Assembly (NCBI RefSeq): GCF_018350175.1 | Contig: NC_058368.1 | Coordinates: 40,240,001-40,304,000 of the forward strand | Reading direction: 5' to 3' | Origin: Felis catus | Lineage: Eukaryota | Length of the DNA: 64,000 nt | Part shown: positions 3,757-56,952 of the stretch, one piece after another | How the letters are laid out: each line of letters opens with the position of its first letter | Numbering within the stretch: position 1 is the stretch's first letter | Made by a program: the position numbers and the translations under genes | Notes under the pieces: model-generated | Database searches by the model: none | Told to the model about the DNA's origin: nothing | Seen by the model: only the letters and a program-made list of their open reading frames with translations

Positions 3757-4216
3757 TAAAACTCATATGTAATTATCTTCACTCCTCTGTAGGCAGGGTG
3801 TTTTTCTTCCCCTGGCTTCTTTCTTTCAAAATATATATATTTTAAATGAAAATGGTATGCCTAGGTGTGATTTTTAGATACTTATTTTGCTTGGTGTTTT
3901 ATGAGCTTGCTGGATCTGTGGGTTTTTGTCTGTTATTAATTTGGGAAAATTTTCAGTCATTACTGTTTCAAGTATTCTTTTTTTTTTTTTTTTTTGTTCT
4001 CCTCCTGGTATTCCTATACGTGTATGCTACACATTTGTACTTGTCCCATAGTTCTTGGCTATTCTGTTTATTCATCTATTTTAGTATTTTTCTTTAATTT
4101 GCTTTTCAGTTTTAGAAATTTCTATTGTGATGTCCTCAAGCTCAGCAATTCTACTAATTCTACTAATAAGCCTATCAAAAGCATTATTTCTGCTACAATG
4201 TTCTTGATCTATAGCA

Positions 4217-4413
4217 TTTTTTAAAGTTTATTTATTTTGAGAAAGATCATGCGACAGAGAGCAGGGGAGGGGCAGAGAGAGGGACAGAATCCCAAGCAGG
4301 CTCCACACTGTCAGCGAGAAGCTGGACTGGAGGGCTAGAGCTTACCAACTGTGAGATCATGATCTGAGCAGAGATCAAGAGTCAGACACTCGGCTAAGCC
4401 ATCCAGACACCCC
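4217..4413 (-). mobile_element. CanSINE
   Basis: TTTATTTATT tail, GA tract, GAGATCATGATCTGAGC core, degenerate head. Confidence 0.88.
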
Positions 4414-6339
4414 AGATCCTATAGAACTTCTTTCTGCTTCTTTCTTGGTTTTTCTGCTCCCATTGCCCATCTCTTCTTACATGCCCTCTACCTTACGCGT
4501 TACAGCTATTCACATATTTATATAATCACAGTTGTTATACATTCCTGGCTTGAAAATTCCAGCATCTCTGCCATATCTGAGTTTGCTTTTGATGCTTTCT
4601 CTGTCTCTTCAAACTGTGTTGTTTTGCCTTTCAACATGTCTTGTATTTTTTTTTTTTCCTAGACTCAGACATGAGATACTGGGTGAAATGAACTACCACC
4701 CCCCCTCCCCCCACCAGCAAAGCCAAATAGTGCACCTTCAGATTCCAGCTGCTCCCTGTTTGCCCTCCTGGGAAATCCCACACTCCTCCCAACCAGATTA
4801 CGCCCCAGGTACAGTTTGTGAGCATCCCTGATGGTGTTCAAAAGAGAACATTTCCTGATTTAAGGGCTTACATGAAAGGGTCAGCTCCTCCATGGAATGG
4901 CGCTGGCAATTAGGCTGGGTCGGTAAGAGAGAACAAAGCCATGAGGTTTTTCTTCAAGGGACAAGATCTGAGGAACAGGCAGAGTGATGGTCTTTTGAGT
5001 TCAATTCTAGAGAACTCGGAGTTGGTGGGGAATAACTGGCCTCAGGACGTGCAATGAAATGGTGTGTTTGGGTTTTTGAGGCTTCGGACCTTGGCAGATG
5101 TGGGACCGGGACCCCAAGTTTCCGCTTCGGAAGCCTATGTCCTTTCACTGACTCGGTCCTTAGTTCTTTAGGAAGGCCATAAACTTGTGTGGGCGCTTTT
5201 TCACTGCCCCCATTCTGGCCTCAGACTACAGCTCCCACGCCCAGCCTTTAGGCCACAGCTCATTCCCACACTCGTGGTGGCAAGCACTCTGAGGCCAGGT
5301 GCCACAGTGTGACTCCGAAAGGGACAGGGACAGGCATCTACAAGGATTGAGGTTTGCCTGATAGGTGTCAGGAGCCAGAAGCCTCGCGGCTGACTTCGGG
5401 ACGAAGCTACTAAAGCAGCCAAAATTCCACACGACCTTACCGGCCCCCGTAGATCTCTCAACATCTCGCGAGATCTGTTTCTGCTGGGTGGTTAACTGAG
5501 ACGGCAGAGTTCCTGGCGTGGACGCAGTGCTTTCTGCTTCACCTCCGTCTCAGTGCTGTTCCAGCTGCTCTGCGGGGACCTACCAGCCTTACCAATAGGT
5601 GAGGAGTAGAGGGAGGAGGAGAATTCTATTGTCCTGTGGTTACAGTTTAGTCTTTTAGTGTGCTTTTATCTTTGGATTATTAACTTCACCTGTGCTCCGT
5701 GTTTAATCCCCTTAAACGGGACAAGAAGCCGGGAGTGGGCTGGAGATGACTAGTTTCCTTCTTCCATGTGGAATGCTAGAAGGGTCTGGGGTTGCATATT
5801 TCCTTTCCTGCAGTGAATTAAACTCTGATAAAACCTGGGAAATTAGACTAATTAAACAAAATGCTCTGGCATATTTTAAAATGTTTTATTTTTCCTCTAC
5901 CTCTGCCAGAAGTAAGAGAGTTTTTGTTGTTGTTTGTTTTTTTCAGCTTTCAGATTCACTGTAAGAATCAGGTTGAGCTTTTGGAGGTAAAAAAACAAAC
6001 AATGTGGAGTCCCCTTTATTAGTGGGTACTTCTGGAATTTTTGACTGTCAGAGTTATCCACACTGATCCTCCAGTAATTATCAAAGTTTAATTTTCCGTA
6101 CCTGGGGATGTTGCTGTTCATGGGCTTCTGATCTGGTAAATTGTGATTGTTTGTAATTTGCCTGTTGGTCTCTCCAATTTTGGGGATACTGGTTTTGCCT
6201 GTAATCTCATTTCTCCTATGGATCTAAGAAAAATTGATTTTCCACTGTGTTTAGTTTTTTTTATTGCTGTTTAAAATAAGAGTACCAGTTCCAAGCTTCT
6301 TACATTCCAGACTGCAGACCAAAAGTGTGGAGACTGCAT

Positions 6340-21934: not shown

Positions 21935-23061
21935 TAACATAAAATATCTTAAAGTTACTGCATTGTATTTTAAGCTGTTAAGAGCTTAACTGCAGCCACC
22001 TATAAATCCCTACTCTTTTACAGTTTCATCCCTTACATTTTTTTTATTGATGTCACAGCTTTCATCTTTATATATTGTAAAATCATTAACACAAATTTTT
22101 ATTTTTTAGTGCTTTTGTAACTTAAATTATATTCAAAGTTAAAAGCAAACAATATTATAATAAATAGAGGTTACTAATTTTTGTCTTGTTTTTACCTTTA
22201 ATGGAGAAATTTATATTTTTAATGGCTTCATGCTTTTATCTATTGTTTTATCATTTCAACCTGAAGGACTTCTGTTAGCATTTGTTGTAAAATAGGTATG
22301 ATGGTAATGAACTTTTTTAGTTTTTGTTTATCGGGGATTTTAATTTTTCCTTTCTGCGTATAGTATTTTCTTTGATAGTTTTTTTTTTCCCCTCTCTATT
22401 TTGAATATATCACCCTTCCTTTTGGCCTGAAAGGTTTCTATTGAGAAATCTACCAATAACTTATAAAAGTTCTATTATATATGATAAGTTGCTTTTCTCT
22501 TGCTACCTTCAAGATTCTTTGTCTTTGACTTTTGGCAGATTGGTCATAATGAGTTTTATGTAGATATCTTTGAGTTAAGTCTAGTTGGATTACATTAAGC
22601 ATCTTGAATTTTTACATTCACTCCTTTCCACGTTTGAGAACCTTTTAAGCATTACTTTTTTTTCTTTTTTTTCAATATATGAAATTTATTGTCAAAATGG
22701 TTTCCATACAACACCCAGTGCTCATCCCAAAAGGTGCCCTCCTCAGTACCCATCACCCACCCTCCCCTCCCTCCCACCCCCCATCAACCCTCAGTTTGTT
22801 CTTAGTTTTTTTTTTCTATTTTTTTCTATTTTTTTTATTATATATGAAATTTATTGACAAATTGGTTTCCATACAACACCCAGTGCTCATCCCAAAAGGT
22901 GCCCTCCTCAATACCCAACACCCACCCTCTCCTCCCTCCCACCCCCCATCAACCCTCAGTTTGTTCTCAGTTTTTAACAGTCTCTTATGCTTTGGCTCTC
23001 TCCCACTCTAACCTCTTTTTTTTTTTTCCTTCCCCTCCCCCATGGGTTCCTGCTAAGTTTC

Positions 23062-26000
23062 TCAGGATCCACATAAGAGTGAAACCATATGGTATCTGTC
23101 TTTCTCTGTATGGCTTATTTCACTTAGCATCACACTCTCCAGTTCCATCCACGTTGCTACAAAAGGCCATATTCCATTTTTTCTCATTGCCACGTAATAT
23201 TCCATTGTGTATATAAACCACAATTTCTTTATCCATTCATCAGTTGATGGACATTTAGGCTCTTTCCATAATTTGGCTATTGTTGAGAGTGCTGCTATGA
23301 ACATTGGGGTACAAGTGGCCCTATGCATCAGTACTCCTGTATCCCTTGGGTAAATTCCTAGCAGTGCTATTGCTGGGTCATAGGGTAGGTCTATTTTTAA
23401 TTTTCTGAGGAAACTCCACACTGCTTTCCAGAGCGGCTGCACCAATTTGCATTCCCACCAACAGTGCAAGAGGGTTCCCGTTTCTCCACATCCTCTCCAG
23501 CATCTATAGTCTCCTGATTTGTTCATTTTGGCCACTCTGACTGGCGTGAGGTGATACCTGAGTGTGGTTTTGATTTGTATTTCCCTGATAAGGAGCGACG
23601 CTGAACATCTTTTCATGTGCCTGTTGGCCATCCGGATGTCTTCTTTAGAGAAGTGTCTATTCATGTTTTCTGCCCATTTCTTCACTGGGTTATTTGTTTT
23701 TCGGGTGTGGAGTTTGGTGAGCTCTTTATAGATTTTGGATACTAGCCCTTTGTCCGATATGTCATTTGCAAATATCTTTTCCCATTCTGTTGGTTGCCTT
23801 TTAGTTTTGTTGGTTGTTTCCTTTGCTGTGCAGAAGCTTTTTATCTTCATAAGGTCCCAGTAATTCACTTTTGCTTTTAATTCCCTTTCCTTTGGGGATG
23901 TGTCAAGTAAGAGATTGCTACGGCTGAGGTCAGAGAGGTCTTTTCCTGCTTTCTCCTCTAAGGTTTTGATGGTTTCCTGTCTCACATTTAGGTCCTTTAT
24001 CCATTTTGAGTTTATTTTTGTGAATGGTGTGAGAAAGTGGTCTAGTTTCAATCTTCTGCATGTTGCTGTCCAGTTCTCCCAGCACCATTTGTTAAAGAGG
24101 CTGTCTTTTTTCCATTGGATGTTCTTTCCTGCTTTGTCAAAGATGAGTTGGCCATACGTTTGTGGGTCTAGTTCTGGGGTTTCTATTCTATTCCATTGGT
24201 CTATGTGTCTGTTTTTGTGCCAATACCATGCTGTCTTGATGATGACAGCTTTGTAGTAGAGGCTAAAGTCTGGGATTGTGATACCTCCTGCTTTGGTCTT
24301 CTTCAAAATTACTTTGGCTATTTGGGGCCTTTTGTGGTTCCATATGAATTTTAGGATTGCTTGTTCTAGTTTTGAGAAGAATGCTGGTGCAATTTTGATT
24401 GGGATTGCATTGAATGTGTAGATAGCTTTGGGTAGTATTGACATTTTGACAATATTTATTTTTCCAATCCATGAGCAGGGAATGTCTTTCCATTTCTTTA
24501 TATCTTCTTCAATTACCCTCATAAGCTTTCTATAGTTTTCAGCATACAGATCTTTTACATCTGTGGTTAGATTTATTCCTAGGTATTTTATGCTTCTTGG
24601 TTCAATTGTGAATGGGATCAGTTTCTTTATTTGTCTTTCTGTTCCTTCATTGTTAGTGTATAAGAATGCAACTGGGGCGCCTGGGTGGCGCAGTCGGCTA
24701 AGCATCCGACTTCAGCTAGGTCACGATCTCGCGGTCGGTGAGTTCGAGCCCCGCGTCGGGCTCTGGGCTGATGGCTCAGAGCCTGGAGCCTGTTTCCGAT
24801 TCTGTGTCTCCCTCTCTCTCTGCCCCTCCCCCGTTCATGCTCTGTCTCTCTCTGTCCCAAAAATAAATAAATGTTGAAAAAAAAAATTAAAAAAAAAAAA
24901 AGAATGCAACTGATTTCTGTACATTGATTTTGTATCCTGCAACTTTGCTGAATTCATGTATCAGTTCTAGCAGACTTCTGGTGGAGTCTATCGGATTTTC
25001 CATGTATAGTATCATGTCATCTGCAAAAAGTGAAAGCTTGACTTCATCTTTGCCAATTTTGATGCCTTTGATTTCCTTTTGTTGTCTGATTGCTGATGCT
25101 AGAACTTCCAACACTATGTTAAACAACAGCGGTGAGAGTGGGCATCCCTGTGTTGTTCCTGATCTCAGGGAAAAAGCTCTCAGTTTTTCCCCATTGAGGA
25201 TGATGTTAGCTGTGGGCTTTTCATAAATGGCTTTTATGATGTTTAAGTATGCTCCTTCTATCCCGACTTTCTCAAGGGTTTTTATTAAGAAAGGTTGCTG
25301 AATTTTGTCAAAGGCCTTTCTGCATCGATTGACAGGATCATATGGTTCTTATCTTTTCTTTTATTAATATGATGTATCACGTTGATTGATTTGCGAATGT
25401 TGAACCAGTCCTGCATCCCTGGAATGAATCCCACTTGATCATGGTGAATAATTCTTTTTATATGCTGTTGAATTCGATTTGCTAGTATCTTATTGAGAAT
25501 TTTTGCATCCATATTCATCAGGGATATTGGCCTGTAGTTCTCTTTTTTTACTGGGTCTCTGTCTGGTTTGGGAATCAAAGTAATACTGGCTTCATAGAAT
25601 GAGTCTGGAAGTTGTCCTTCCCTTTCTATTTTTTGGAATAGCTTGAGAAGGATAGGTATTATCTCTGCTTTAAACGTCTGGTAGAACTCCCCTGGGAAGC
25701 CATCTGGTCCTGGACTCTTATTTGTTGGGAGATTTTTGATAACCGATTCAATTTCTTCGCTGGTTATGGGTCTGTTCAAGCTTGCTATTTCATCCTGATT
25801 GAGTTTTAGAAGAGTGTGGGTGTTTAGGAAGTTGTCCATTTGTTGGCATATAATTTTTCATAGTATTCCCTGATAATTGTTTGTATCTCTGAGGGATTGG
25901 TTGTAATAATTCCATTTTCATTCATGATTTTATCTATTTGGGTCCTCTCCCTTTTCTTTTTGAGAAGCCTGGCTAGAGGTTTGTCAATTTTGTTTATTTT

Positions 26001-27101
26001 TTCAAAAAACCAACTCTTGGTTTCGTTGATCTGCTCTACAGTTTTTTTAGATTCTATATTGTTTATTTCTGCTCTGATCTTTATTATTTCTCTTCTTCTG
26101 CTGGGTTTAGGCTGCCTTTGCTGTTCTGCTTCTAGTTCCTTTAGGTGTGCTGTTAGATTTTCTATTTGGGATTTTTCTGGTTTCTTAAGATAGGCCTGGA
26201 TTGCAATGTATTTTCCTCTCAGGACTGCCTTCGCTGCGTCCCAAAGCGTTTGGATTGTTGTATTTTCATTTTCGTTTGTTTCCATGTAGTTTTTAATTTC
26301 TTCTCTAATTGCCTGGTTGACCCACTCATTCTTTAGTAGGGTGTTCTTTAACCTCCATACTTTTGGAGGCTTTCGAGACTTTTTCCTGTGGTTGATTTCA
26401 AGCCTCATAGCATTGTGGTCTGAAAGTATGCATGGTATAATTTCAATTCTTGTATACTTATGAAGGGCTGTTTTGTGACCCAGTATATGATCTATCTTGG
26501 AGAATGTTCCATGTGCACTCGAGAAGAAAGTATATTCTTTTGCTTTGGGATGCAGAGTTCTAAATATATCTGTCATGTCCATCTGATCCAATGTCTCATT
26601 CAGGGCCCTTGTTTCTTTATTGACCGTGTGCCTAGATTATCTATCCATTTCTGTAAGTGAAGTGTTAAAGTCCCCTGCAATTACCACATTCTTATCAATA
26701 AGGTTGCTTACGTTTATGAGTAATTGTTTTATATATTTGGGGGCTCCCGTATTCGGCGCATAGACATTTATAACTGGTAGCTCTTCCTGATGGAGAGACC
26801 CTGTAATTATTATACAATGCCCTTCTTCATCTCTTGTTACAGCCTTTTATTGAAAGTCTAGTTTGTCTGATATAAGTATGGCTACTCCAGCTTTCTTTTG
26901 GCTTCCAGTAGCATGATAAATAGTTCTCCATCCCCTCACTCTCAATCTAAATGTGTCCTCAGGTCTAAAATGAGTCTCTTGTAGACAGCAAATAGATGGG
27001 TCTTGTTTTTTTATCCATTCTGATACCCTATGTCTTTTGGTTGGCACATTTAATCCATTTACATTCAGTGTTATTACAGAAAGATATGAGTTTAGAGTCA
27101 T
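23062..27101 (-). pseudogene. Disrupted L1 ORF2
   Basis: ORF2 fragments in the track (23062-24705, 24887-25126, 25285-25839, 25824-26591, 26847-27155). SINE insertion at 24674, 1-bp deletion ~25317, ~19-bp deletion ~25841, nonsense change ~26847. Confidence 0.93.
24674..24899 (+). mobile_element. Young SINEC_Fc-type SINE inserted in L1 ORF2
   Basis: GGGGCGCCTGGGTGGCGCAGTCGG head, B-box GTTCGAGCCC, (CT)n, poly(A); TSD AAGAATGCAACT at 24662-24673 and 24900-24911. Confidence 0.97.
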
Positions 27102-27151
27102 TGTGATGTCTGTATGTTTTATGCTTGTAGCGATGTCTCTGGTACTTTGTC

Positions 27152-28041
27152 TCACAGGATTCCCCTTAGGATCTCTTGTAGGGCTGGTTTAATGGTGAGG
27201 AATTCCTTCAGTTTTTGTTTGTTTGGGAAGACCTTTATCTCTCCTTCTATTCTAAATGACAGACTTGCTGGATAAAGGATTCTCGGCTGCATATTTTTTC
27301 TGTTCATCACATTGAAGGTCTCCTGGCATTCCTTTCTGGCCTGCCAAGTTTCAAAAGAGAGATTGGTCACAAGTCTTATAGGTCTCCCTTTATATGTTAG
27401 GGCACGTTTATCCCTTGCTGCTTTCAGAATTTTCTCTTTTATCCTTGTATTTTGCCAGTTTCACTATGATATGTCGTGCAGAAGATCGATTCAAGTTACG
27501 TCTGAAGGGAGTTCTCTGTGCCTGTTGGATTTCAATGTCTTTTTCCTTCTCCAGTTCAGGGAAGTTCTCAGCTATTATTTCTTCAAGTACCCCTTCAGCA
27601 CCTTTCCCTCTCTCTTCCTCCTCTGGGATACCAATTATGCGTATATTATTTCTTTTTAGTGTATCACTTAGTTCTCTAATTTTCCCCTCATACTCCTGGA
27701 TTTTTTTATCTTTTTCTCAGCTTCCTCTTTTTTGTAATTTTATCTTCTAGTTCACCTATTCTCTCCTCTGCCTCTTCAATCCGAGCCATAGACGTTTCCA
27801 TTTTATTTTGCATCTCGTTTAAAGCGGTTTTCAGCTCCTCCTGACTGTTCCTTAGTCCCTTGATCTCTGTAGCAAGAGATTCTCTGCTGTCCTGTATACT
27901 GTTTTCAAGCCCAGCGATTAATTTTATGACTATTATTCTAAATTCACTTTCTGTGATATTATTTAAATCCTTTTTGATCAGCTCATTAGCTGTTGTTATT
28001 TCCTGGAGATTCTTCTGAGGGGAATTCTTCCGCTTGGTCAT
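27152..28041 (-). pseudogene. Frameshifted L1 ORF1
   Basis: ORF1 N-terminus (MTKRKNSPQ...) in 27706-28080 and C-terminus in 27152-27370; indels near 27440 and 27710-27735 relative to the intact copy. Confidence 0.9.
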
Positions 28042-28961
28042 TTTGGATAGTCCCTGGCGTGGTGAGGACCTGCAGGGCACTTCCCCTGTGCTGTGGTGTA
28101 TAACTGGAGTTGGTGGGCGGGGCCGCAGTCATACCTGATGTCTCCCCCCAGCCCACCGCTGGGACCACAGTCCGACTGGTGTGTGCCTTCTCTTCCCCTC
28201 TCCTAGGGCCGGGATTCACTGTGGGGTGGTGTGGCCCGTCTGGGCTACTTGCACACTGCCAGGCTTGTGGAGCTGGGGATCTGGCATATTAGCTGGGGTG
28301 GGTAGGCAAGGTGCACGGGGGCAGGAGGGGCAGGCTTATCTCGCTTCTTCTTAGGTGATCCACATCAGGAGGGGCCCTGTGGCAGCGGGAGGGAGTCAGA
28401 CCCGCTGCCGGAGGGGTGGCTCCGCAGAAGCACAGTGTTGGGTGTTTGCGCTGAGCAAGCAAGTTCCCTGGCAGGAACTGGTTCTCTTTGGGATTTTGGC
28501 TGGGGGATGGGCGAGGGAGATGGCCCCGGGAGTGCCTTTGTTCCCCTCCAAACTGAGCTCTGTTGTCCCAGGGCTCAGCAACTCTCCCTCCCTTTGTCCT
28601 CCAGCCTTCCTGCTTTCAGAGACATAGCTGTTAACTTATGACCTCCCAGATGCTAAGTCCCGCTTGCTGTGGGAACACGGAACACACTCCGTCCAGCCCC
28701 TCTGCTTTTGCAAGCCAGACTTGGGGGCTCTGCTTGGCTGGCAGGCCGCTCCTCCGCCCCTGGCTCCCTCCCGCCAGTCCGTGGAGCGCGCACCACCTGT
28801 CCTCCCTTCCTATCGTCTTCCGTTTGCCTCTCGTCTGCTCTTGGCTTGGCTTCGGAGACTTAGTTCTGCTAATCCTCTGGCGGTTTTCTGGGTTATTTAG
28901 GCAGGTGTAGGTGGAATCTAAGTGATCAGCAGGACGCGCGGTGAGCCCAGCGTCCTCCTAT

Positions 28962-28972
28962 GCCGCCATATT
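28962..28972 (-). promoter_or_regulatory. YY1-binding motif at L1 5' terminus
   Basis: GCCGCCATATT on + matches the YY1 consensus GCCGCCATNTT, at the position expected for mammalian L1 5' ends. Confidence 0.7.
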
Positions 28973-30495
28973 CCTCCAATCAAGCATTATTTTTCAAATA
29001 AGCTGTCTGCCCCTTTTGCCACTGTCCTTCTTCAATGACTCCTATAATGCATGTTATAATTCCTAACATCATAATGTAATTATTAGTCAAGCTGCTATAA
29101 AGGTCCATGGGGAGACTTTTGAGTGGAAATAATTTTTGTAGTTAATTTGGGTAAATGCTAAGAAGTGTGATTGGTGAATCCTAGTGTGAGTATATATTTA
29201 CTTTTATGAGAAACTATCACCGTGTCTTCCAAAGCAGGTGCGCCATTTTCCCGATACCAAGTAATGTGGTTACTTGTTGCTCTGCATCATTGCCAGTATT
29301 TGGTGCTGTCAGTGTTCTGGATTGGTCACTTTAGTAGATATATAATAGCATTTAATTTTCGTCAGTTTGCATTTCCCTGATGACCTATGTTGTGGGGCAC
29401 ATTTTCATATTCCTATTGGCCATTTTTGTATCTTCTTTGATGAAGTAAATGTCTGTTAAGGTCTTTGGCCTATTTTTAAATTGTGTTGTTTATGTTTTAT
29501 TGCTGAGTTTTAAGAATTCCTTGTGTATTTTGAGTAACAGTCCTTTATCATTTATGTTGTTTTGCAAATTCTTAAAGTCTGTGGTTTTTTAAAATATCTC
29601 TTGACAGTGTCTTTTGCTGAGTTCAAGTTTTTTATTTTAATTTTATTTAGTAAACTGTATCTTAGCGATTCTTTCTGTCCTGAATTGTTCCTTTGGTGTT
29701 GTATCTAAAATATCATCATCAAACCCATGGTTATGTTGATTTTTCCTGTGTTATCTTTTAACAGCTCTTTGGTTTTTTGTTTGTATGTAGATGTGAAGTT
29801 TTTAAAAGACTACCTATTTATTGAAAAGACCATCTTTTTTTTTTCTTTTCTATTTTATTGCCTTTCTCTTTTATCAATCTGCAAACAAAGACAGTTTTTC
29901 TTTCTTCTCAATCTGTATATCTTTAATATGTCATAGGTTTAGCTAGGAATTCAGCTACAGTGTTGAAAAGGAGTGGTGAAAGGGGATAACCTTGTTCCTG
30001 ATCTTGGTGGGAAAGCCTTGAGTTTCTTACCATTAACTGTGACATGACCTAAGTTTTTTGTATGTGTTCTGTATTAAGTTGAGTGAGTTCTCTATTCCTA
30101 GTTTTCTTAGAGTTTTGAACATGAATGGATATTATATTTTGTCAAGGCCTTTTCCTGCTTCTGATGGTATGATTATCTGTTATTTCTTCATTAGCCCTTT
30201 GCTATGATAGTTTATTTTACAATGTTGAGCCAGGCTTACATACTTTGGATAAATCCCACTTGATTGTGCTGTGTCCCTTTTATACATGGTTGGATTTGAT
30301 TTGTTAATATTCTGTTGAAAATTTTGTATCTATATTCATGAGAGATATTGGTCTATAGTTTTTGTGTAGCATGTTTTTCTGGTTTTAGTAATAGGGAATG
30401 CTGCCCTCACAGAATGAGTTAGGTATTTTCCCTTGGCTTCCATCTCTGAAAGCGATTATAGAGGATTAGTATAATTTCCTTAAAATTTTTACTGA

Positions 30496-49720: not shown

Positions 49721-50691
49721 ACCTCCTGGTAGAGCCCTGGGCATTTCTGCAGGATATTTTAACATAAACTTATCTTTTATGATAATACTCTTAATATTCT
49801 GTAATCAGCTTTTGTAATAATCAATAATTTGTATATACAAGAAAAATTTCATACTGCAGTAAGAATCCTCTTATGCAAATTAATTATTCTAAAGTTTCTG
49901 TCTCATTATTTGTTTACACTAAAAGTCTTAATGTTGGAGGACTTGTTTGGAAAATCTGATCGAAAATACATGGTAGTGTCATAGAAAAGTTAAAGGTAGA
50001 ATAACCTCAAGGCAATACAGAATTATTCACCAAAATGATTATAAGTGTTAGAGCTAGGTTGTTCATGCATGTGTAGCAGTTCTCCAGGGTAAGTAACAGA
50101 AGGGATTTATTTATTCAAGAATGGTTCCTATTTCCTCTGAGTATGCTTGATTGGCCAGCTGTTTATAAATATGTAGGATTGTATTACAATATCAAAGCAG
50201 AAAGTACATCTAAGACTCATGAACCAAAACAGAAACAAGAACTAGTATTAGGAACCAAGGCAGCTAATTTTTTAGGGCCTCTTCAAGGAGTTACGATCTT
50301 GCCTCTTTCTCTGCTTTTCATGGTAAACCTGTGTGTCACAGCTAACTTTTTCTCTGTAATTCTGCATGCACATGTACACATGACCTACTATGCTCACCCA
50401 CCCAATAATAATCCTCAGTTCTAGCCATCAACTGAAATCAATTCCAAATTTTTGGAGAGATCATCCAGTTGTCTCAATCTGGGCCAGGTTTCTAAGCTTG
50501 GAGTTCTTGCTTTGGCCCAGGAACTGTTAAATAGAACAGTCATGGCTCTAAAAGCTTATGAGGCTTTCACAGACTGGTTGCTATGGACAAGGTAACAGCA
50601 AGAAGTCTCTATTTGGGTGGCAGAAATAATGGTTTTAATTTTACTTTGATGAGAGATTTAAATTAACAAGTGTGTTATGCAAATAGGTAAT

Positions 50692-50724
<33 letters not shown>

Positions 50725-51011
50725 TTTCTTGCTAGCTTTGTTCCTTTTCTTTTTAGCTCTTTTTTTTTTTTTTTTCTTCTTTTTTTTTTTTTTAATATGA
50801 AATTTATTGACAAATTAGTTTCCATACAACACCCAGTGCTCATCCCAGAAGGTGCCCTCCTCAATACCCATCACCCACCCTCTCCTCCCTCCCACCCCCC
50901 ATCAACCCTCAGTTTGTTCTCAGGTTTTAAGAGTCTCTTATACTTTGGCTCTCTCCCACTCTAACCTGTTTTTTTTTTCCTTCCCCTCCCCCATGGGTTC
51001 CTGTTAAATTC

Positions 51012-54000
51012 TCAGGGTCCACATAAGAGTGAAACCATATGGTATCTGTCTTTCTCTGTATGGCTTATTTCACTTAGCATCACACTCTCCAGTTCCATCC
51101 ACGTTGCTACAAAAGGCCATATTTCATTTTTTCTCATTGCCACGTAATATTCCATTGTGTATATAAACCACAATTTCTTTATCCATTCATCAGTTGATGG
51201 ACATTTAGGCTCTTTCCATAATTTGGCTATTGTTGAGAGTGCTGCTATGAACATTGGGGTACAAGTGGCCCTATGCATCAGTACTCCTGTATCCCTTGGA
51301 TAAATTCCTAGCAGTGCTATTGCTGGGTCATAGGGTAGGTCTATTTTTAATTTTCTGAGGAACCTCCACACTGCTTTCCAGAGCGGCTGCACCAATTTGC
51401 ATTCCCACCAACAGTGCAAGAGGGTTCCCGTTTCTCCACATCCTCTCCAGCATCTAGAGTCTCCTGATTTGTTCATTTTGGCCACTCTGACTGGCGTGAG
51501 GTGATACCTGAGTGTGGTTTTGATTTGTATTTCCCTGATAAAGAGCGACGCTGAACATCTTTTCATGTGCCTGTTGGCCATCCGGATGTCTTCTTTAGAG
51601 AAGTGTCTATTCATGTTTTCTGCCCATTTCTTCACTGGGTTATTTGTTTTTCGGGTGTGGAGTTTGGTGAGCTCTTTATAGATTTTGGATACTAGCCCTT
51701 TGTCCGATATGTCATTTGCGAATATCTTTTCCCATTCCGTTGGTTGCCTTTTAGTTTTGTTGGTTGTTTCCTTTGCTGTGCAGAAGCTTTTTATCTTCAT
51801 AAGGTCCCAGTAATTCACTTTTGCTTTTAATTCCCTTGCCTTTGGGGATGTGTTGAGTAAGAGATTGCTACGGCTGAGGTCAGAGAGGTCTTTTCCTGCT
51901 TTCTCCTCTAAGGTTTTGATGGTTTCCTGTCTCACATTTAGGTCCTTTATCCATTTTGAGTTTATTTTTGTGAATGGTGTGAGAAAGTGGTCTAGTTTCA
52001 ACCTTCTGCATGTTGCTGTCCAGTTCTCCCAGCACCATTTGTTAAAGAGGCTGTCTTTCTTCCATTGGATGTTCTTTCCTGCTTTGTCAAAGATGAGTTG
52101 GCCATACGTTTGTGGGTCTAGTTCTGGGGTTTCTATTCTATTCCATTGGTCTATGTGTCTGTTTCTGTGCCAATACCATGCTGTCTTGATGATGACAGCT
52201 TTGTAGTAGAGGCTAAAGTCTGGGATTGTGATGCCTCCTGCTTTGGTCTTCTTCTTCAAAATTCCTTTGGCTATTCGGGGCCTTTTGTGGTTCCATATGA
52301 ATTTTAGGATTGTTTGTTCTAGTTTCGAGAAGAATGCTGGTGCAATTTTGATTGGGATTGCATTGAATGTGTAGATAGCTTTGGGTAGTATTGACATTTT
52401 GACAATATTTATTTTTCCAATCCATGAGCAGGGAATGTCTTTCCATTTCTTTAAATCTTCTTCAATTTCCTTCATAAGCTTTCTATAGTTTTCAGCATAC
52501 AGATCTTTTACATCTTTGGTTAGATTTATTCCTAGGTATTTTATGCTTCTTGGTGCAATTGTGAATGGGATCAGTTTCTTTATTTGTCTTTCTGTTGCTT
52601 CATTGTTAGTGTATAAGAATGCAACTGATTTCTGTACATTGATTTTGTATCCTGCAACTTTGCTGAATTCCTGTATCAGTTCTAGTAGACTTTTGGTGGA
52701 GTCTATCGGATTTTCCATGTATAATATCATGTCATCTGCAAAAAGCGAAAGCTTGACTTCGTCTTTGCCAATTTTGATGCCTTTGATTTCCTTTTGTTGT
52801 CTGATTGCTGATGCTAGAACTTCCAGCACTATGTTAAACAGCAGCGGTGAGAGTGGGCATCCTTGTCGTGTTCCTGATCTCAGGGAAAAAGCTCTCAGTT
52901 TTTCCCCGTTGAGGATGATGTTAGCTGTGGGCTTTTCATAGATGGCTTTTATGATCTTTAAGTATGTTCCTTCTATCCCGACTTTCTCAAGGGTTTTTAT
53001 TAAGAAAGGGTGCTGGATTTTGTCAAAGGCCTTTTCTGCATCGATTGACAGGATCATATGGTTCTTCTCTTTTTTTTTGTTAATGTGATGTATCACGTTG
53101 ATTGATTTGCGAATGTTGAACCAGCCCTGCATCCCAGGAATGAATCCCACTTGATCATGGTGAATAATTCTTTTTATATGCCGTTGAATTCGATTTGCTA
53201 GTATCTTATTGAGAATTTTTGCATCCATATTCATCAGGGATATTGGCCTGTAGTTCTCTTTTTTTACTGGGTCTCTGTCAGGTTTAGGAATCAAAGTAAT
53301 ACTGGCTTCATAGAATGAGTCTGGAAGTTTTCCTTCCCTTTCTATTTCTTGGAATAGCTTGAGAAGGATAGGTATTATCTCTGCTTTAAACGTCTGGTAG
53401 AACTCCCCTGGGAAGCCATCTGGTCCTGGACTCTTATTTGTTGGGAGATTTTTGATAACCGATTCAATTTCTTCACTGGTTATGGGTCTGTTCAAGCTTT
53501 CTATTTCCTCCTGATTGAGTTTTGGAAGAGTGTGGGTGTTCAGGAATTTGTCCATTTCTTCCAGGTTGTCCAATTTGTTGGCATATAATTTTTCATAGTA
53601 TTCCCTGATAATTGTTTGTATCTCTGAGGGATTGGTTGTAATCATTCCATTTTCATTCATGATTTTATCTATTTGGGTCATCTCCCTTTTCTTTTTGAGA
53701 AGCCTGGCTAGAGGTTTGTCAATTTTGTTTATTTTTTCAAAAAACCAACTCTTGGTTTCGTTGATCTGCTCTACAGTTTTTTTAGATTCTATATTGTTTA
53801 TTTCTGCTCTGATCTTTATTATTTCTCTTCTTCTGCTGGGTTTAGGCTGCCTTTGCTGTTCTGCTTCTAGTTCCTTTAGGTGTGCTGTTAGATTTTGTAT
53901 TTGGGATTTTTCTTGTTTCTTGAGATAGGCCTGGATTGCAATGTATTTTCCTCTCAGGACTGCCTTCGCTGCGTCCCAAAGCGTTTGGATTGTTGTATTT

Positions 54001-54836
54001 TCATTTTCGTTTGTTTCCATATATTTTTTAATTTCTTCTCTAATTGCCTGGTTGACCCACTCATTCGTTAGTAGGGTGTTCTTTAACCTCCATGCCTTTG
54101 GAGGTTTTCCAGACTTTTTCCTGTGGTTGATTTCAAGCTTCATAGCATTGTGGTCTGAAAGTATGCATGGTATAATTTCAATTCTTGTAAACTTATGAAG
54201 GGCTGTTTTGTGACCCAGTATGTGATCTATCTTGGAGAATGTTCCATGTGCACTCGAGAAGAAAGTATATTCTGTTGCTTTGGGATGCAGCGTTCTAAAT
54301 ATATCTGTCAAGTCCATCTGATCCAATGTCTCATTCAGGGCCCTTGTTTCTTTATTGACCGTGTGTCTAGATGATCTGTCCATTTCTGTAAGTGGGGTGT
54401 TAAAGTCCCCTGCAATTACCACATTCTTATCAATAAGATTGCTTATGTTTATGAGTAATTGTTTTATATATTTGGGGGCTCCGGTATTCGGCGCATAGAC
54501 ATTTACAATTGTTAGCTCTTCCTGATGGATAGACCCTGTAACTATTATATAATGTCCTTCTTCATCTCTTGTTACAGCCTTTAATTTAAAGTCTAGTTTG
54601 TCTGATATAAGTATGGCTACTCCAGCTTTCTTTTGGCTTCCAGTCGCATGATAAATAGTTCTCCATCCCCTCACTCTCAATCTAAAGGTGTCCTCAGGTC
54701 TAAAATGAGTCTCTTGTAGACAGCAAATAGATGGGTCTTGTTTTTTTATCCATTCTGATACCCTATGTCTTTTGGTTGGTGCATTTAATCCATTTACATT
54801 CAGTGTTATTATAGAAAGATACGGGTTGAGAGTCAT
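51012..54836 (-). CDS. ORF2: LINE-1 ORF2p (endonuclease / reverse transcriptase / C-terminal cysteine-rich domain), 1274 aa from first ATG
   Basis: Uninterrupted ORF. APE endonuclease motifs (NVNGLN, CLQETH, GDFN, SDH), RT motifs ([12 protein letters not shown]), C-terminal CWRGC...HCWWEC. ATG of MTLNPY at 54836; the ORF track start at 54890 is a GTG. Confidence 0.97.
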
Positions 54837-54886
54837 TGTGATGTCTGTATGTTTTATGCTTGTAGTGATGTCTCTGGGACTTTGTC

Positions 54887-55780
54887 TCACAGGGTCCCCC
54901 TTAGGATCTCTTGTAGGGCTGGTTTAGTGGTGACAAATTCCTTCAGTTTTTGTTTGTTTGGGAAAACCTTTATCTCTCCTTCTATTCTAAATGACAGACT
55001 TGCTGGGTAAAGGATTCTCGGCTGCATATTTTTTCTGTCTAGCACCCTGAAAATCTCGTGCCAATTCTTTCTGGCCTGCCAAGTTTCAAAAGAGAGATCA
55101 GTCACGAGTCTTATAGGTCTCCCTTTATATGTGAGGGCACGTTTACCCCTTGCTGCTTTCAGAATTTTCTCTTTATCCTTGTATTTTGCCAGTTTCACTA
55201 TGATATGTCGTGCTGAAGATCGATTCAAGTTACGTCTGAAGGGAGTTCTCTGTGCCTCTTGGATTTCAATGCCTTTTTCCTTCCCCAGTTCAGGGAAGTT
55301 CTCAGCTATGATTTCTTCAAGTACCCCTTCAGCACCTTTCCCTCTCTCTTCCTCCTCTGGGATACCAATTATGCGTATATTATTTCTTTTTAGTGTATCA
55401 CTTAGTTCTCTAATTTTCCCCTCATACTCCTGGATTTTTTTATCTCTCTTTTTCTCAGCTTCCTCTTTTTCCATAACTTTATCCTCTAGTTCACCTATTC
55501 TCTCCTCTGCCTCTTCAAGCCGAGCTGTGGTGGTTTCCATTTTGTTATGCATTTCGTTTAAAGCGTTTTTCAGCTCCTCGTGACTGTTCCTTAGTCCCTT
55601 GATCTCTGTAGCAAGAGATTCTCTGCTGTCCTGTATACTGTTTTCAAGCCCAGCGATTAATTTTATGACTATTATTCTAAATTCACTTTCTGTTAAATTA
55701 TTTAAATCCTTTTTGATCAGTTCATTAGCTGTTGTTATTTCCTGGAGATTCTTCTGAGGGGAATTCTTCCGCTTGGTCAT
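54887..55780 (-). CDS. ORF1: LINE-1 ORF1p (RNA-binding chaperone; coiled coil-RRM-CTD), 297 aa
   Basis: ATG of MTKRKN at 55780. Heptad-rich coiled coil, [14 protein letters not shown] start, ARK/YPASLS CTD motifs; stop at 54887. Confidence 0.95.
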
Positions 55781-56597
55781 TTTGGATAGTCCCTGGCGTG
55801 GTGAGGACCTGCAGGGCACTTCCCCTGTGTTGTGGTGTATAACTGGAGTTGGTGGGCGGGGCCGCAGTCAGACCTGATGTCTGCCCCCAGCCCACCGCTG
55901 GGGCCACAGTCAGACTGGTGTGTGCCTTCTCTTCCCCTCTCCTAGGGGCGGGATTCACTGTGGGGTGGTGTGGCCCGTCTGGGCTACTTGCACACTGCCA
56001 GGCTTGTGATGCTGGGGATCTGGCGTATTAGCTGGGGTGGGTAGGCAAGGTGCACGGGGGTAGGAGGGGCAGGCTTAGATCGCTTCTCCTTAGGTGATCC
56101 TCTTCAGGAGGGGCCCTGTGGCAGCGGGAGGGAGTCAGATCCGCTGCCGGAGGTTTGGCTCCGCAGAAGCACAGAGTTGGGTGTTTGCGCGGAGCGAGCA
56201 AGTTCCCTGGCAGGAACTGGTTCTCTTTGGGATTTTGGCTGGGGGATGGGCGGGGGAGATGGCGCTGGCGAGCGCCTTTGTTCCCCACCAAGCTGAGCTC
56301 TGTCGTCAGGGGGCTCAGCAGCTCTCCCTCCCTTTGTCCTCCAGCCTTCCCGCTTTCTGAGCAGAGCTGTTAACTTATGACCTCCCAGACGCTAAGTCGC
56401 GCTTGTTGTGGGAACACAGTCCGTTAGGCCCCTCCGCTTTTGCCAGCCAGACTCGGGGGCTCTGCTTGGCCGGCGAGCCGCCCCTCCGCCCCGGCTCCCT
56501 CCCGCCAGTCCGTGGAGCGCGCACCGCCTCGCAGCCCTTCCTACCCTCTTCCGTGGGCCTCTCGTCTGCGTTTGGCTCCGGCGACTCCGTTCTGCTC
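55781..56597 (-). promoter_or_regulatory. L1 5'UTR internal Pol II promoter (CpG-rich), lacking its extreme 5' end
   Basis: GC/CpG-rich and homologous to 28042-28870 of the other L1; established L1 architecture. Confidence 0.85.
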
Positions 56598-56952
56598 GCA
56601 AATAGGTAATTAAAATAACTTTATTTTCAATTCCCTACAACACCCCTCACATTTAAATCTAGGTATAAACCAAGTTATTTTCTGACATTATTAATTTTAT
56701 GCTATTATAAGTTTTTGTTTTTACAATTATTTTTAAATTTTTCATTAGATCTCTTAACTCTATTTTAATGTTACTTCTTTTCTAAACCCATGGGAAAAGC
56801 TAGAATATAATTTATGTTACTGTAACATAGAGACTCAAATATGCTATGATTCAAAATACATAGAAGTTAAGTGTCTCTCACAGTATGTTCTAGAGGTAGG
56901 TAGGTGTCCCAGAGCAGGAATGCAGCTCTTATCCATACAATGATCAGGGCTT

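What the first reader, a model, noticed from the sequence alone, without database searches (positions are those of the whole stretch)
4693..5585. Captured promoter/first-exon-like GC-rich segment inside an ancient L1
Seen: ~880 bp of GC- and CpG-enriched, non-repeat-looking DNA in an AT-rich region, flanked by a short direct repeat CTACCA (4693-4698, 5580-5585), with no poly(A). It contains the palindrome ATCTCGCGAGAT (5463-5474; BANP/ZBTB33-type CGCG motif), GACTACAGCTCCCA (5224-5237; ZNF143/THAP11-type ACTACA motif), ETS-like TTCCG/CGGAAG (~5120-5133) and a minus-strand donor CCG|GTAAGG at 5441/5440. From recall, the flanks on both sides are contiguous L1M sequence. Inference: a fragment of another gene's CpG-island promoter/exon 1/intron 1 was pasted here by repair-mediated capture or an unspliced RNA copy, and might act as an ectopic promoter.
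Basis: partly seen in the sequence, partly recalled or inferred. Interest (0 to 1): 0.7.

Follow-up and report, generated by a model that had tools for sequence, protein, structure and literature searches.

The report
Stray promoter-like fragment inside old L1
An 880-base stretch carrying two textbook gene-promoter motifs sits inside a long-dead jumping gene in a cat-like genome; it is probably a piece of another gene's promoter pasted in during DNA repair, a known kind of accident, but its source gene and any activity remain unfound.

Summary
The segment is real: 881 nt, 54% GC, CpG o/e 0.44 (0.85 in the last 200 nt) against 0.09-0.23 in the flanks. Two motifs beat chance: the CGCG/BANP element (0 of 3000 shuffles) and the ZNF143/THAP11 site (1 of 3000). 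The ETS word and the splice donor are at background, so 'exon 1/intron 1' is unsupported. The 6-nt repeat is expected by chance in 14-68% of trials; a 12-nt repeat near both ends is rarer and unexplained. The left flank is L1 ORF1; L1 identity of the right flank rests on recall. There is no poly(A), poly(A) signal, LTR ends or terminal inverted repeat, and no likeness to the window's young L1 5'UTRs. No parent locus was found; the one protein hit, P0001, is a chimeric gene model of this same locus. Best reading: an ectopic copy of a housekeeping-type promoter edge, pasted by break repair, more likely from DNA than from unspliced RNA, and probably silent. Known kind of event; parent and activity untested.

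The parts
3868..4224 (-). Degenerate L1 ORF1 of the host element (left flank)
   Evidence: tblastn of the window's young L1 ORF1, residues 70-188, 32.5% identity, E 1e-10; Pfam Transposase_22 on 3874-4026, E 1.9e-4, 22.1 bits against a cut-off of 22.4
4224..4415 (+). Older carnivore-type tRNA SINE inserted in the L1 ORF1
   Evidence: 65-70% identity to many SINE copies in the window; CpG o/e 0.24; family name from recall
4416..4692 (-). Probable 5' part of L1 ORF1 up to the left junction
   Evidence: 277 nt (92 codons) lie between the SINE and the junction, against 69 unaligned N-terminal residues of the young ORF1, so the junction falls near the expected ORF1 start; inference
4693..4698 (+). 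CTACCA, left copy of the 6-nt repeat; chance-level, not shown to be a target-site duplication
4699..5579 (.). GC- and CpG-enriched segment, single copy in the window
   Evidence: GC 0.539, CpG o/e 0.437; only a self hit at E<0.1 in the window; passes Gardiner-Garden but not Takai-Jones thresholds
4743..4754 (+).
   Evidence: 131 of 4000 shuffles give a 12-mer repeat anywhere, 1 of 4000 between the first and last 60 nt
5224..5237 (+). ZNF143/THAP11-type site GACTACAGCTCCCA (matches ACTAYRnnnCCCR)
   Evidence: 1 of 3000 shuffles for the strict pattern, 20 of 3000 for the loose one; motif definition from the abstract listing of PMC5006282
5380..5579 (.). CpG-dense core
   Evidence: 14 CpG in 200 nt, o/e 0.85, with little TpG/CpA excess
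5433..5443 (-). Donor-like CCG|GTAAGG; 7 of 9 consensus positions, at background frequency
5463..5474 (.). Perfect palindromic CGCG/BANP element ATCTCGCGAGAT
   Evidence: 0 of 3000 shuffles, none elsewhere in the window; PMC6192621 passages
5559..5570 (+). Right copy of the 12-nt direct repeat
5580..5585 (+). CTACCA, right copy of the 6-nt repeat
5586..6330 (-). Right flank, probable 5'UTR of the same old L1 (L1MC-type by recall only); carries a plus-strand donor-like TAG|GTGAGG at 5598/5599
   Evidence: GC 0.385, CpG o/e 0.147; donor score; position upstream of ORF1 fits; identity not tested against any sequence

Best explanation
The segment is an ectopic copy of the edge of a housekeeping-type CpG-island promoter from another locus. 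It was pasted into an already dead L1, near its 5'UTR/ORF1 boundary, during repair of a germline DNA break (templated insertion by end joining or template switching), more likely from a DNA template than from an unspliced RNA. It entered long after the L1 did and is probably methylated and slowly decaying, with no function. Shown: composition, the two motifs, the L1 ORF1 on the left, the missing retrotransposition and transposon hallmarks. Inferred: the parent, the repair route, the age and the silence.
For: Perfect CGCG element and ZNF143/THAP11 site, 0 and 1 of 3000 shuffles. The CGCG element is rare and promoter-enriched: 413 copies in the human motif set (PMC6192621 section 22). CpG o/e is 0.44 overall and 0.85 in the core. 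The L1 host shows 0.09-0.23 and three neighbouring old SINEs 0.16-0.24, while three young SINEs show 0.78-0.80 and two young L1 5'UTRs 0.43-0.55, so the segment is younger than its host or protected from methylation. The left junction falls near the expected ORF1 start. No poly(A), poly(A) signal, TG...CA ends or terminal inverted repeat. Start sites lie 20-70 nt from a CGCG element on either strand (PMC6192621 passages), i.e. 5394-5444 or 5493-5543; an RNA starting there could not hold the whole 881 nt. P0001 implies a CpG at 5278-5279 where the window has TpG, one weak sign of ongoing deamination.
Against: No parent sequence was found in any search, though none of these holds a mammalian genome. 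Flank contiguity and the empty site are untested. The boundaries are uncertain, with a 6-nt and a 12-nt candidate repeat. Classic break-repair patches lack target duplications (PMC5110952). 881 nt is longer than the 73-414 nt experimental insertions in that review. A perfect CGCG palindrome with both CpGs intact fits poorly with long methylation. CpG islands can have several start clusters, which weakens the DNA-over-RNA argument.
Confidence: 0.55

Rival explanations
1. Unspliced RNA (promoter-spanning pre-mRNA or upstream antisense transcript) of another gene was reverse-transcribed by L1 machinery and inserted, with the 6-nt or 12-nt repeat as target duplication.
For: Templated insertions are enriched for transcribed sequence and fall with reverse-transcriptase inhibitors (PMC5110952). 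A direct repeat of 5 nt or more flanks the segment. The 12-nt repeat is rare near both ends (1 of 4000 shuffles, 1 of 614 window controls) and of L1-like length.
Against: No poly(A) tract or signal on either strand. Neither repeat is A-rich like an L1 endonuclease site. The donor is at background, there is no GC or AT skew to mark a sense strand, and the CGCG element lies inside the segment rather than upstream of it.
Confidence: 0.15
2. The segment is part of a repeat not otherwise present in the window: a variant L1 5'UTR, an LTR/ERV leader fragment or another carnivore element, and the motifs are that element's own promoter sites.
For: It sits where an L1 5'UTR meets ORF1. Its overall CpG o/e (0.44) equals that of the window's young L1 5'UTRs (0.43, 0.55). 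No repeat library could be searched.
Against: No similarity to the two young L1 5'UTRs or anything else in the window. No LTR ends, poly(A) signal or terminal inverted repeats. No Pfam match for 3 of 3 insert ORFs tested. An integral part of so old an L1 should be as CpG-depleted as its flanks.
Confidence: 0.15
3. The segment is a functioning promoter of this locus: an old insert or native sequence kept unmethylated, possibly part of a larger block that came with a MAGE-B-like sequence nearby.
For: The CpG core and the CGCG palindrome are intact in a CpG-poor region. One unmethylated TCTCGCGAGA suffices for two-way reporter transcription (PMC6192621). Gene model P0001 chains two exons of this locus to a MAGE domain closest to MAGE-B1. 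By recall only, some words of the insert resemble MAGE 5' regions.
Against: It fails Takai-Jones island thresholds. The MAGE domain is not in the window. P0001 is a single-member, unnamed model that reads through an L1 flank. Type I MAGE promoters mostly lack CpG islands and MAGEB genes are listed on X (PMC3484994 passages), while unchecked scan notes place this window near PCDH9. No expression data were examined.
Confidence: 0.15

Closest known systems
Class 2 templated sequence insertions (Onozawa and Aplan 2016, PMC5110952; parts 1-3 of 4 read)
   Same: Non-repeat sequence placed into an unrelated site with no poly(A) or poly(A) signal; intronic and intergenic templates are reported.
   Different: Class 2 events lack target duplications, while here short direct repeats of uncertain meaning flank the segment. 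The distant donor that defines the class was not found. The segment is longer than the 73-414 nt experimental cases, and polymorphism was not shown.
Class 1 templated sequence insertions (L1 ORF2-mediated; same review)
   Same: A flanking duplication of 5 nt or more is formally present.
   Different: No poly(A), no poly(A) signal and no TTTT/A target site.
CGCG-element (BANP) CpG-island promoters (PMC6192621, passages and section 22; PMC11472053, passages)
   Same: Perfect TCTCGCGAGA, TATA-less, CpG-rich core, with a ZNF143/THAP11-type site 240 nt away.
   Different: Only the edge of an island, embedded in an L1 remnant with no gene found in the window; methylation state, which decides BANP binding, is unknown.

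Membership tests
Class 1 templated insertion (L1-mediated) | Poly(A) tract with an upstream AATAAA | tested here: not met
   No A8 run and no AATAAA/ATTAAA on either strand of 4699-5579
Class 1 templated insertion (L1-mediated) | Target-site duplication of 5 nt or more | tested here: inconclusive
   6-mer at chance level; 12-mer rare but inside the GC-rich segment; empty site unknown
Class 1 templated insertion (L1-mediated) | Insertion at TTTT/A | tested here: not met
   Neither candidate repeat is A- or T-rich (sequence)
Class 2 templated insertion (break repair) | Donor sequence at a distant locus | not testable with these tools
   No genome held; indirect searches negative
Class 2 templated insertion (break repair) | No poly(A) or poly(A) signal | tested here: met
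Class 2 templated insertion (break repair) | No target duplication; microhomology, microdeletion or added bases at the junctions | tested here: inconclusive
   Needs the donor and the empty site; two candidate repeats
Class 2 templated insertion (break repair) | Presence/absence polymorphism | tested here: inconclusive
   14 of 14 listed genome-sized runs hold all words, but the list is ranked by holding and the query had no flanks
CGCG/BANP CpG-island promoter | TCTCGCGAGA element | tested here: met
   Perfect copy at 5464-5473, 0 of 3000 shuffles
CGCG/BANP CpG-island promoter | CpG-island composition | tested here: inconclusive
   Gardiner-Garden windows pass (4996-5631); no Takai-Jones window passes; best 500-nt o/e 0.60
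CGCG/BANP CpG-island promoter | Unmethylated, open chromatin, start sites within 20-70 nt | not testable with these tools
   No chromatin or read data examined
Solo LTR / DNA transposon | TG...CA ends with a poly(A) signal, or terminal inverted repeats | tested here: not met
Young feliform L1 5'UTR | Similarity to the 5'UTRs of the window's two young L1s | tested here: not met
   Only a self hit at E<0.1 with word size 7
Ancient L1M 5'UTR or other library repeat | Match to a Dfam/Repbase consensus | not testable with these tools
   No repeat library; motif scans for relatives of the right flank gave 0 hits

The most novel reading that the evidence does not exclude
The pasted fragment brought a self-sufficient BANP plus ZNF143 module that keeps itself unmethylated and works as an orphan promoter in a gene-poor region. 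It would start transcripts at about 5493-5543 on the plus strand that splice from a donor supplied by the L1 flank (5598/5599), or run on the minus strand into the dead ORF1. That would be a lineage-specific promoter born by copying a promoter alone, without its gene, and a natural test of whether these motifs protect a transplanted island edge from methylation over evolutionary time.
Probability: 0.12. Interest if true: 0.6.

Novelty: new member of a known kind. Interest (0 to 1): 0.3.

Why it matters
If the fragment is silent, it is an ordinary repair scar whose only value is as a phylogenetic marker. If it is unmethylated and transcribed, it would be a natural promoter transplant: a parent-and-copy pair in one genome that tests whether BANP and ZNF143 sites alone can keep an ectopic CpG island open and create a new transcription unit.

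Tried and rejected
Own-genome search: no genome is held. No reads or contigs were laid on the locus, so junctions, an empty allele, diverged parent contigs and expression are all unexamined. Rfam: 0 matches in the window. Insert against plasmids by blastn: no match. CGCG-plus-donor motif: 0 hits in viral contigs; 3 hits in metagenomes, all one AT-rich repeat with no similarity to the insert. Right-flank motif: 0 hits in viral, metagenome and prokaryote collections. ORF1 fragment in viral contigs: 1 locus from 46 candidates, GC-rich phage-like DNA, judged chance. Protein searches with 3 of the insert's reading-frame segments: 0 of 44 candidates, 0 of 1, 1 of 130 (P0001). The representative search gave 4 hits: P0001 and three repetitive proteins judged compositional. 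P0001 was first taken as a possible parent and rejected, because it also matches the right flank 41 of 41 residues. ESM Atlas on a right-flank ORF: no usable hit. Scan notes: nothing near, by sequence, among relatives or by words. Paper searches for a published ectopic CpG-island promoter copy gave nothing relevant; this is three keyword searches of an open-licence library, not proof of absence. The donor and the ETS word were rejected as evidence. Strand skew gave no orientation. No supplements were opened.

Full report
Setting. The window is AT-rich (GC 0.366) and full of SINEs and L1s. Its stop-to-stop ORFs of 120 codons or more look like L1, SINE-crossing or low-complexity frames on inspection (19 ORFs; not scanned against families), and Rfam finds nothing. 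The SINE and L1 types point to a cat-like carnivore (recall). Unchecked notes from this scan place the window about 2.4 Mb from a site upstream of PCDH9, on the piece that also carries STOML3 and SMAD9. No whole genome is held.

Observation. All listed motifs are at the stated coordinates. The segment 4699-5579 has 881 nt, GC 0.539, 28 CpG and o/e 0.437. Its flanks have o/e 0.094 (3760-4200), 0.228 (4420-4692) and 0.147 (5586-6330). The enrichment is lopsided: 5 CpG in 4699-5060 (o/e 0.216) and 14 CpG in 5380-5579 (0.852). It passes Gardiner-Garden but not Takai-Jones island thresholds, and has no poly(A), poly(A) signal, TATA box or strand skew. It has no second copy in the window, including the two young L1 5'UTRs. 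All 14 genome-sized runs listed by the run search hold every sampled word. Of these, 8 are flagged as possible sources, leaving 6 rows from 3 studies. This argues against an assembly error but says nothing about fixation, since the list is ranked by holding.

Which features beat chance. I tested 8 patterns, chosen after the fact, in 3000 dinucleotide-preserving shuffles. The perfect TCTCGCGAGA appeared in 0 and RACTACAnnTCCCA in 1; neither occurs elsewhere in the window. The loose ACTAYRnnnCCCR form appeared in 20. CGGAAG (P=0.34) and the YY1-like ATGGCG (P=0.17) are background, and the full ETS word CCGGAAGT is absent. GGTAAG occurs twice, once per strand (P=0.034), and 13 times elsewhere in the window. 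Donors scoring 7/9 or better number 3 in the insert against 3.9 per kb in the window. The promoter-like character therefore rests on two motifs and the CpG core; the exon-1/intron-1 reading has no independent support.

Junctions. The 6-nt repeat is weak evidence. If the ends are known only to +-10, 20 or 30 nt, a shared 6-mer appears in 14%, 42% or 68% of 4000 random pairs, and a second 6-mer links 4713 and 5582. A perfect 12-nt repeat lies at 4743-4754 and 5559-5570. A 12-mer repeat arises anywhere in 131 of 4000 shuffles, but between the first and last 60 nt in only 1 of 4000, and in 1 of 614 real window stretches (zones set after seeing it). It does not extend into longer similarity. It may be the true duplication, a trace of two-step or template-switched insertion, or a feature of the parent; I cannot decide. 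The ends are not TG...CA and there is no terminal inverted repeat.

Host element. The window's young L1 ORF1 aligns to 4224-3868 on the minus strand (residues 70-188, 32.5%, E 1e-10). Pfam Transposase_22 matches 1 of 3 left-flank fragments, just under its cut-off (22.1 against 22.4 bits). After removing the SINE, 92 codons separate that alignment from the junction against 69 missing residues, so the segment sits near the 5'UTR/ORF1 boundary. By recall the right flank resembles an L1MC-type 5'UTR that continues almost directly into the left flank. No call could test this: a motif from the right flank found 0 relatives in three collections.

Search for a parent. None was found, but no tool held a mammalian genome and no reads were laid. 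DNA and motif searches were empty or chance. Protein searches covered 3 reading-frame segments of the insert and gave one real hit, P0001, a single-member 403-residue record. It carries a MAGE domain closest to MAGE-B1 that is not in the window. It then matches 6223-6101 in the right flank at 41 of 41 residues and, after an apparent splice, the insert from about 5336 to 5229 at 35 of 36. It is therefore a chimeric gene model of this same locus from another assembly or allele, not the parent. Its one difference implies CpG at 5278-5279 where the window has TpG, assuming the simplest codon change.

Age and state. Three old SINEs in the left flank have CpG o/e 0.16-0.24, a fourth elsewhere has 0.30, three young SINEs have 0.78-0.80 and the two young L1 5'UTRs 0.43 and 0.55. 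The segment groups with the young elements, not with its host. It either arrived long after the L1 or is protected from methylation; sequence alone cannot separate these. The single CpG/TpG difference leans weakly to methylation, and the intact CGCG palindrome leans the other way.

Mechanism. PMC6192621 (passages and section 22) reports that TCTCGCGAGA is promoter-enriched (413 copies in its motif set), that one copy drives two-way reporter transcription, that methylation abolishes this, and that start sites lie 20-70 nt away. PMC11472053 (passages) reports that full-length BANP does not detectably bind the fully methylated site. Applied here, starts would fall at 5394-5444 or 5493-5543. The minus-strand donor at 5441 would then lie at or before most starts, and no RNA from these starts could contain the whole segment. 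I therefore favour a DNA-templated repair patch (0.55) over an unspliced RNA copy (0.15), an unrecognised repeat (0.15) or a working local promoter, possibly tied to the MAGE-like sequence (0.15). MAGE context comes from passages of PMC3484994 and PMC3112145; the ZNF143/THAP11 motif papers were seen as search listings only.

Comparison with known kinds. It works like a class 2 templated sequence insertion (PMC5110952, parts 1-3 of 4), but membership is not shown because the donor and the empty site are missing. Class 1 is excluded by the lack of poly(A), poly(A) signal and TTTT/A site. Similar copy-paste scars were noted elsewhere in this genome by earlier, unchecked agents. Three keyword searches found no paper on an ectopic CpG-island promoter copy of this type, which is not proof of absence.

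Verdict. A real and unusual-looking segment, probably a pasted promoter fragment, of a known kind of event. The parent and any activity are unshown. Interest 0.3; about 0.6 if it proves to be an active, self-protecting orphan promoter (probability about 0.12).

Noticed in passing
window 4743-4754 and 5559-5570: Perfect 12-nt direct repeat just inside both ends of the segment, much rarer by chance than the 6-nt repeat; meaning unresolved.
   Followed up: partly
P0001; window 6223-6101 and about 5336-5229, minus strand: A public gene model joins a MAGE-B-like domain that is absent from the window to two exons of this locus, hinting at a MAGE-B-like copy nearby although scan notes place the window away from the X clusters; it could also be a mis-joined model.
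   Followed up: partly
window about 50680-56610, minus strand: Full-length young L1 with open ORF1 (326 codons stop to stop) and ORF2 (1303 codons), a CpG-rich 5'UTR and a 15-nt candidate target duplication.
   Followed up: partly
window about 22650-29000, minus strand: Second young L1 of the same type, 94-97% identical to the first, with interrupted frames, an inserted SINE and a 165-nt tandem duplication at its 3' end.
   Followed up: no
window 4922-4930 and 5596-5604, plus strand: Plus-strand donor-like words: GGTAAG inside the segment and TAG|GTGAGG in the right flank, 55-105 nt past the predicted plus-strand start zone.
   Followed up: partly
L002-L004: An AT-rich, apparently non-mammalian repeat (copies 92% alike) in one metagenome carries a perfect TCTCGCGAGA palindrome near a GGTAAG word; unrelated to the window.
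   Followed up: no
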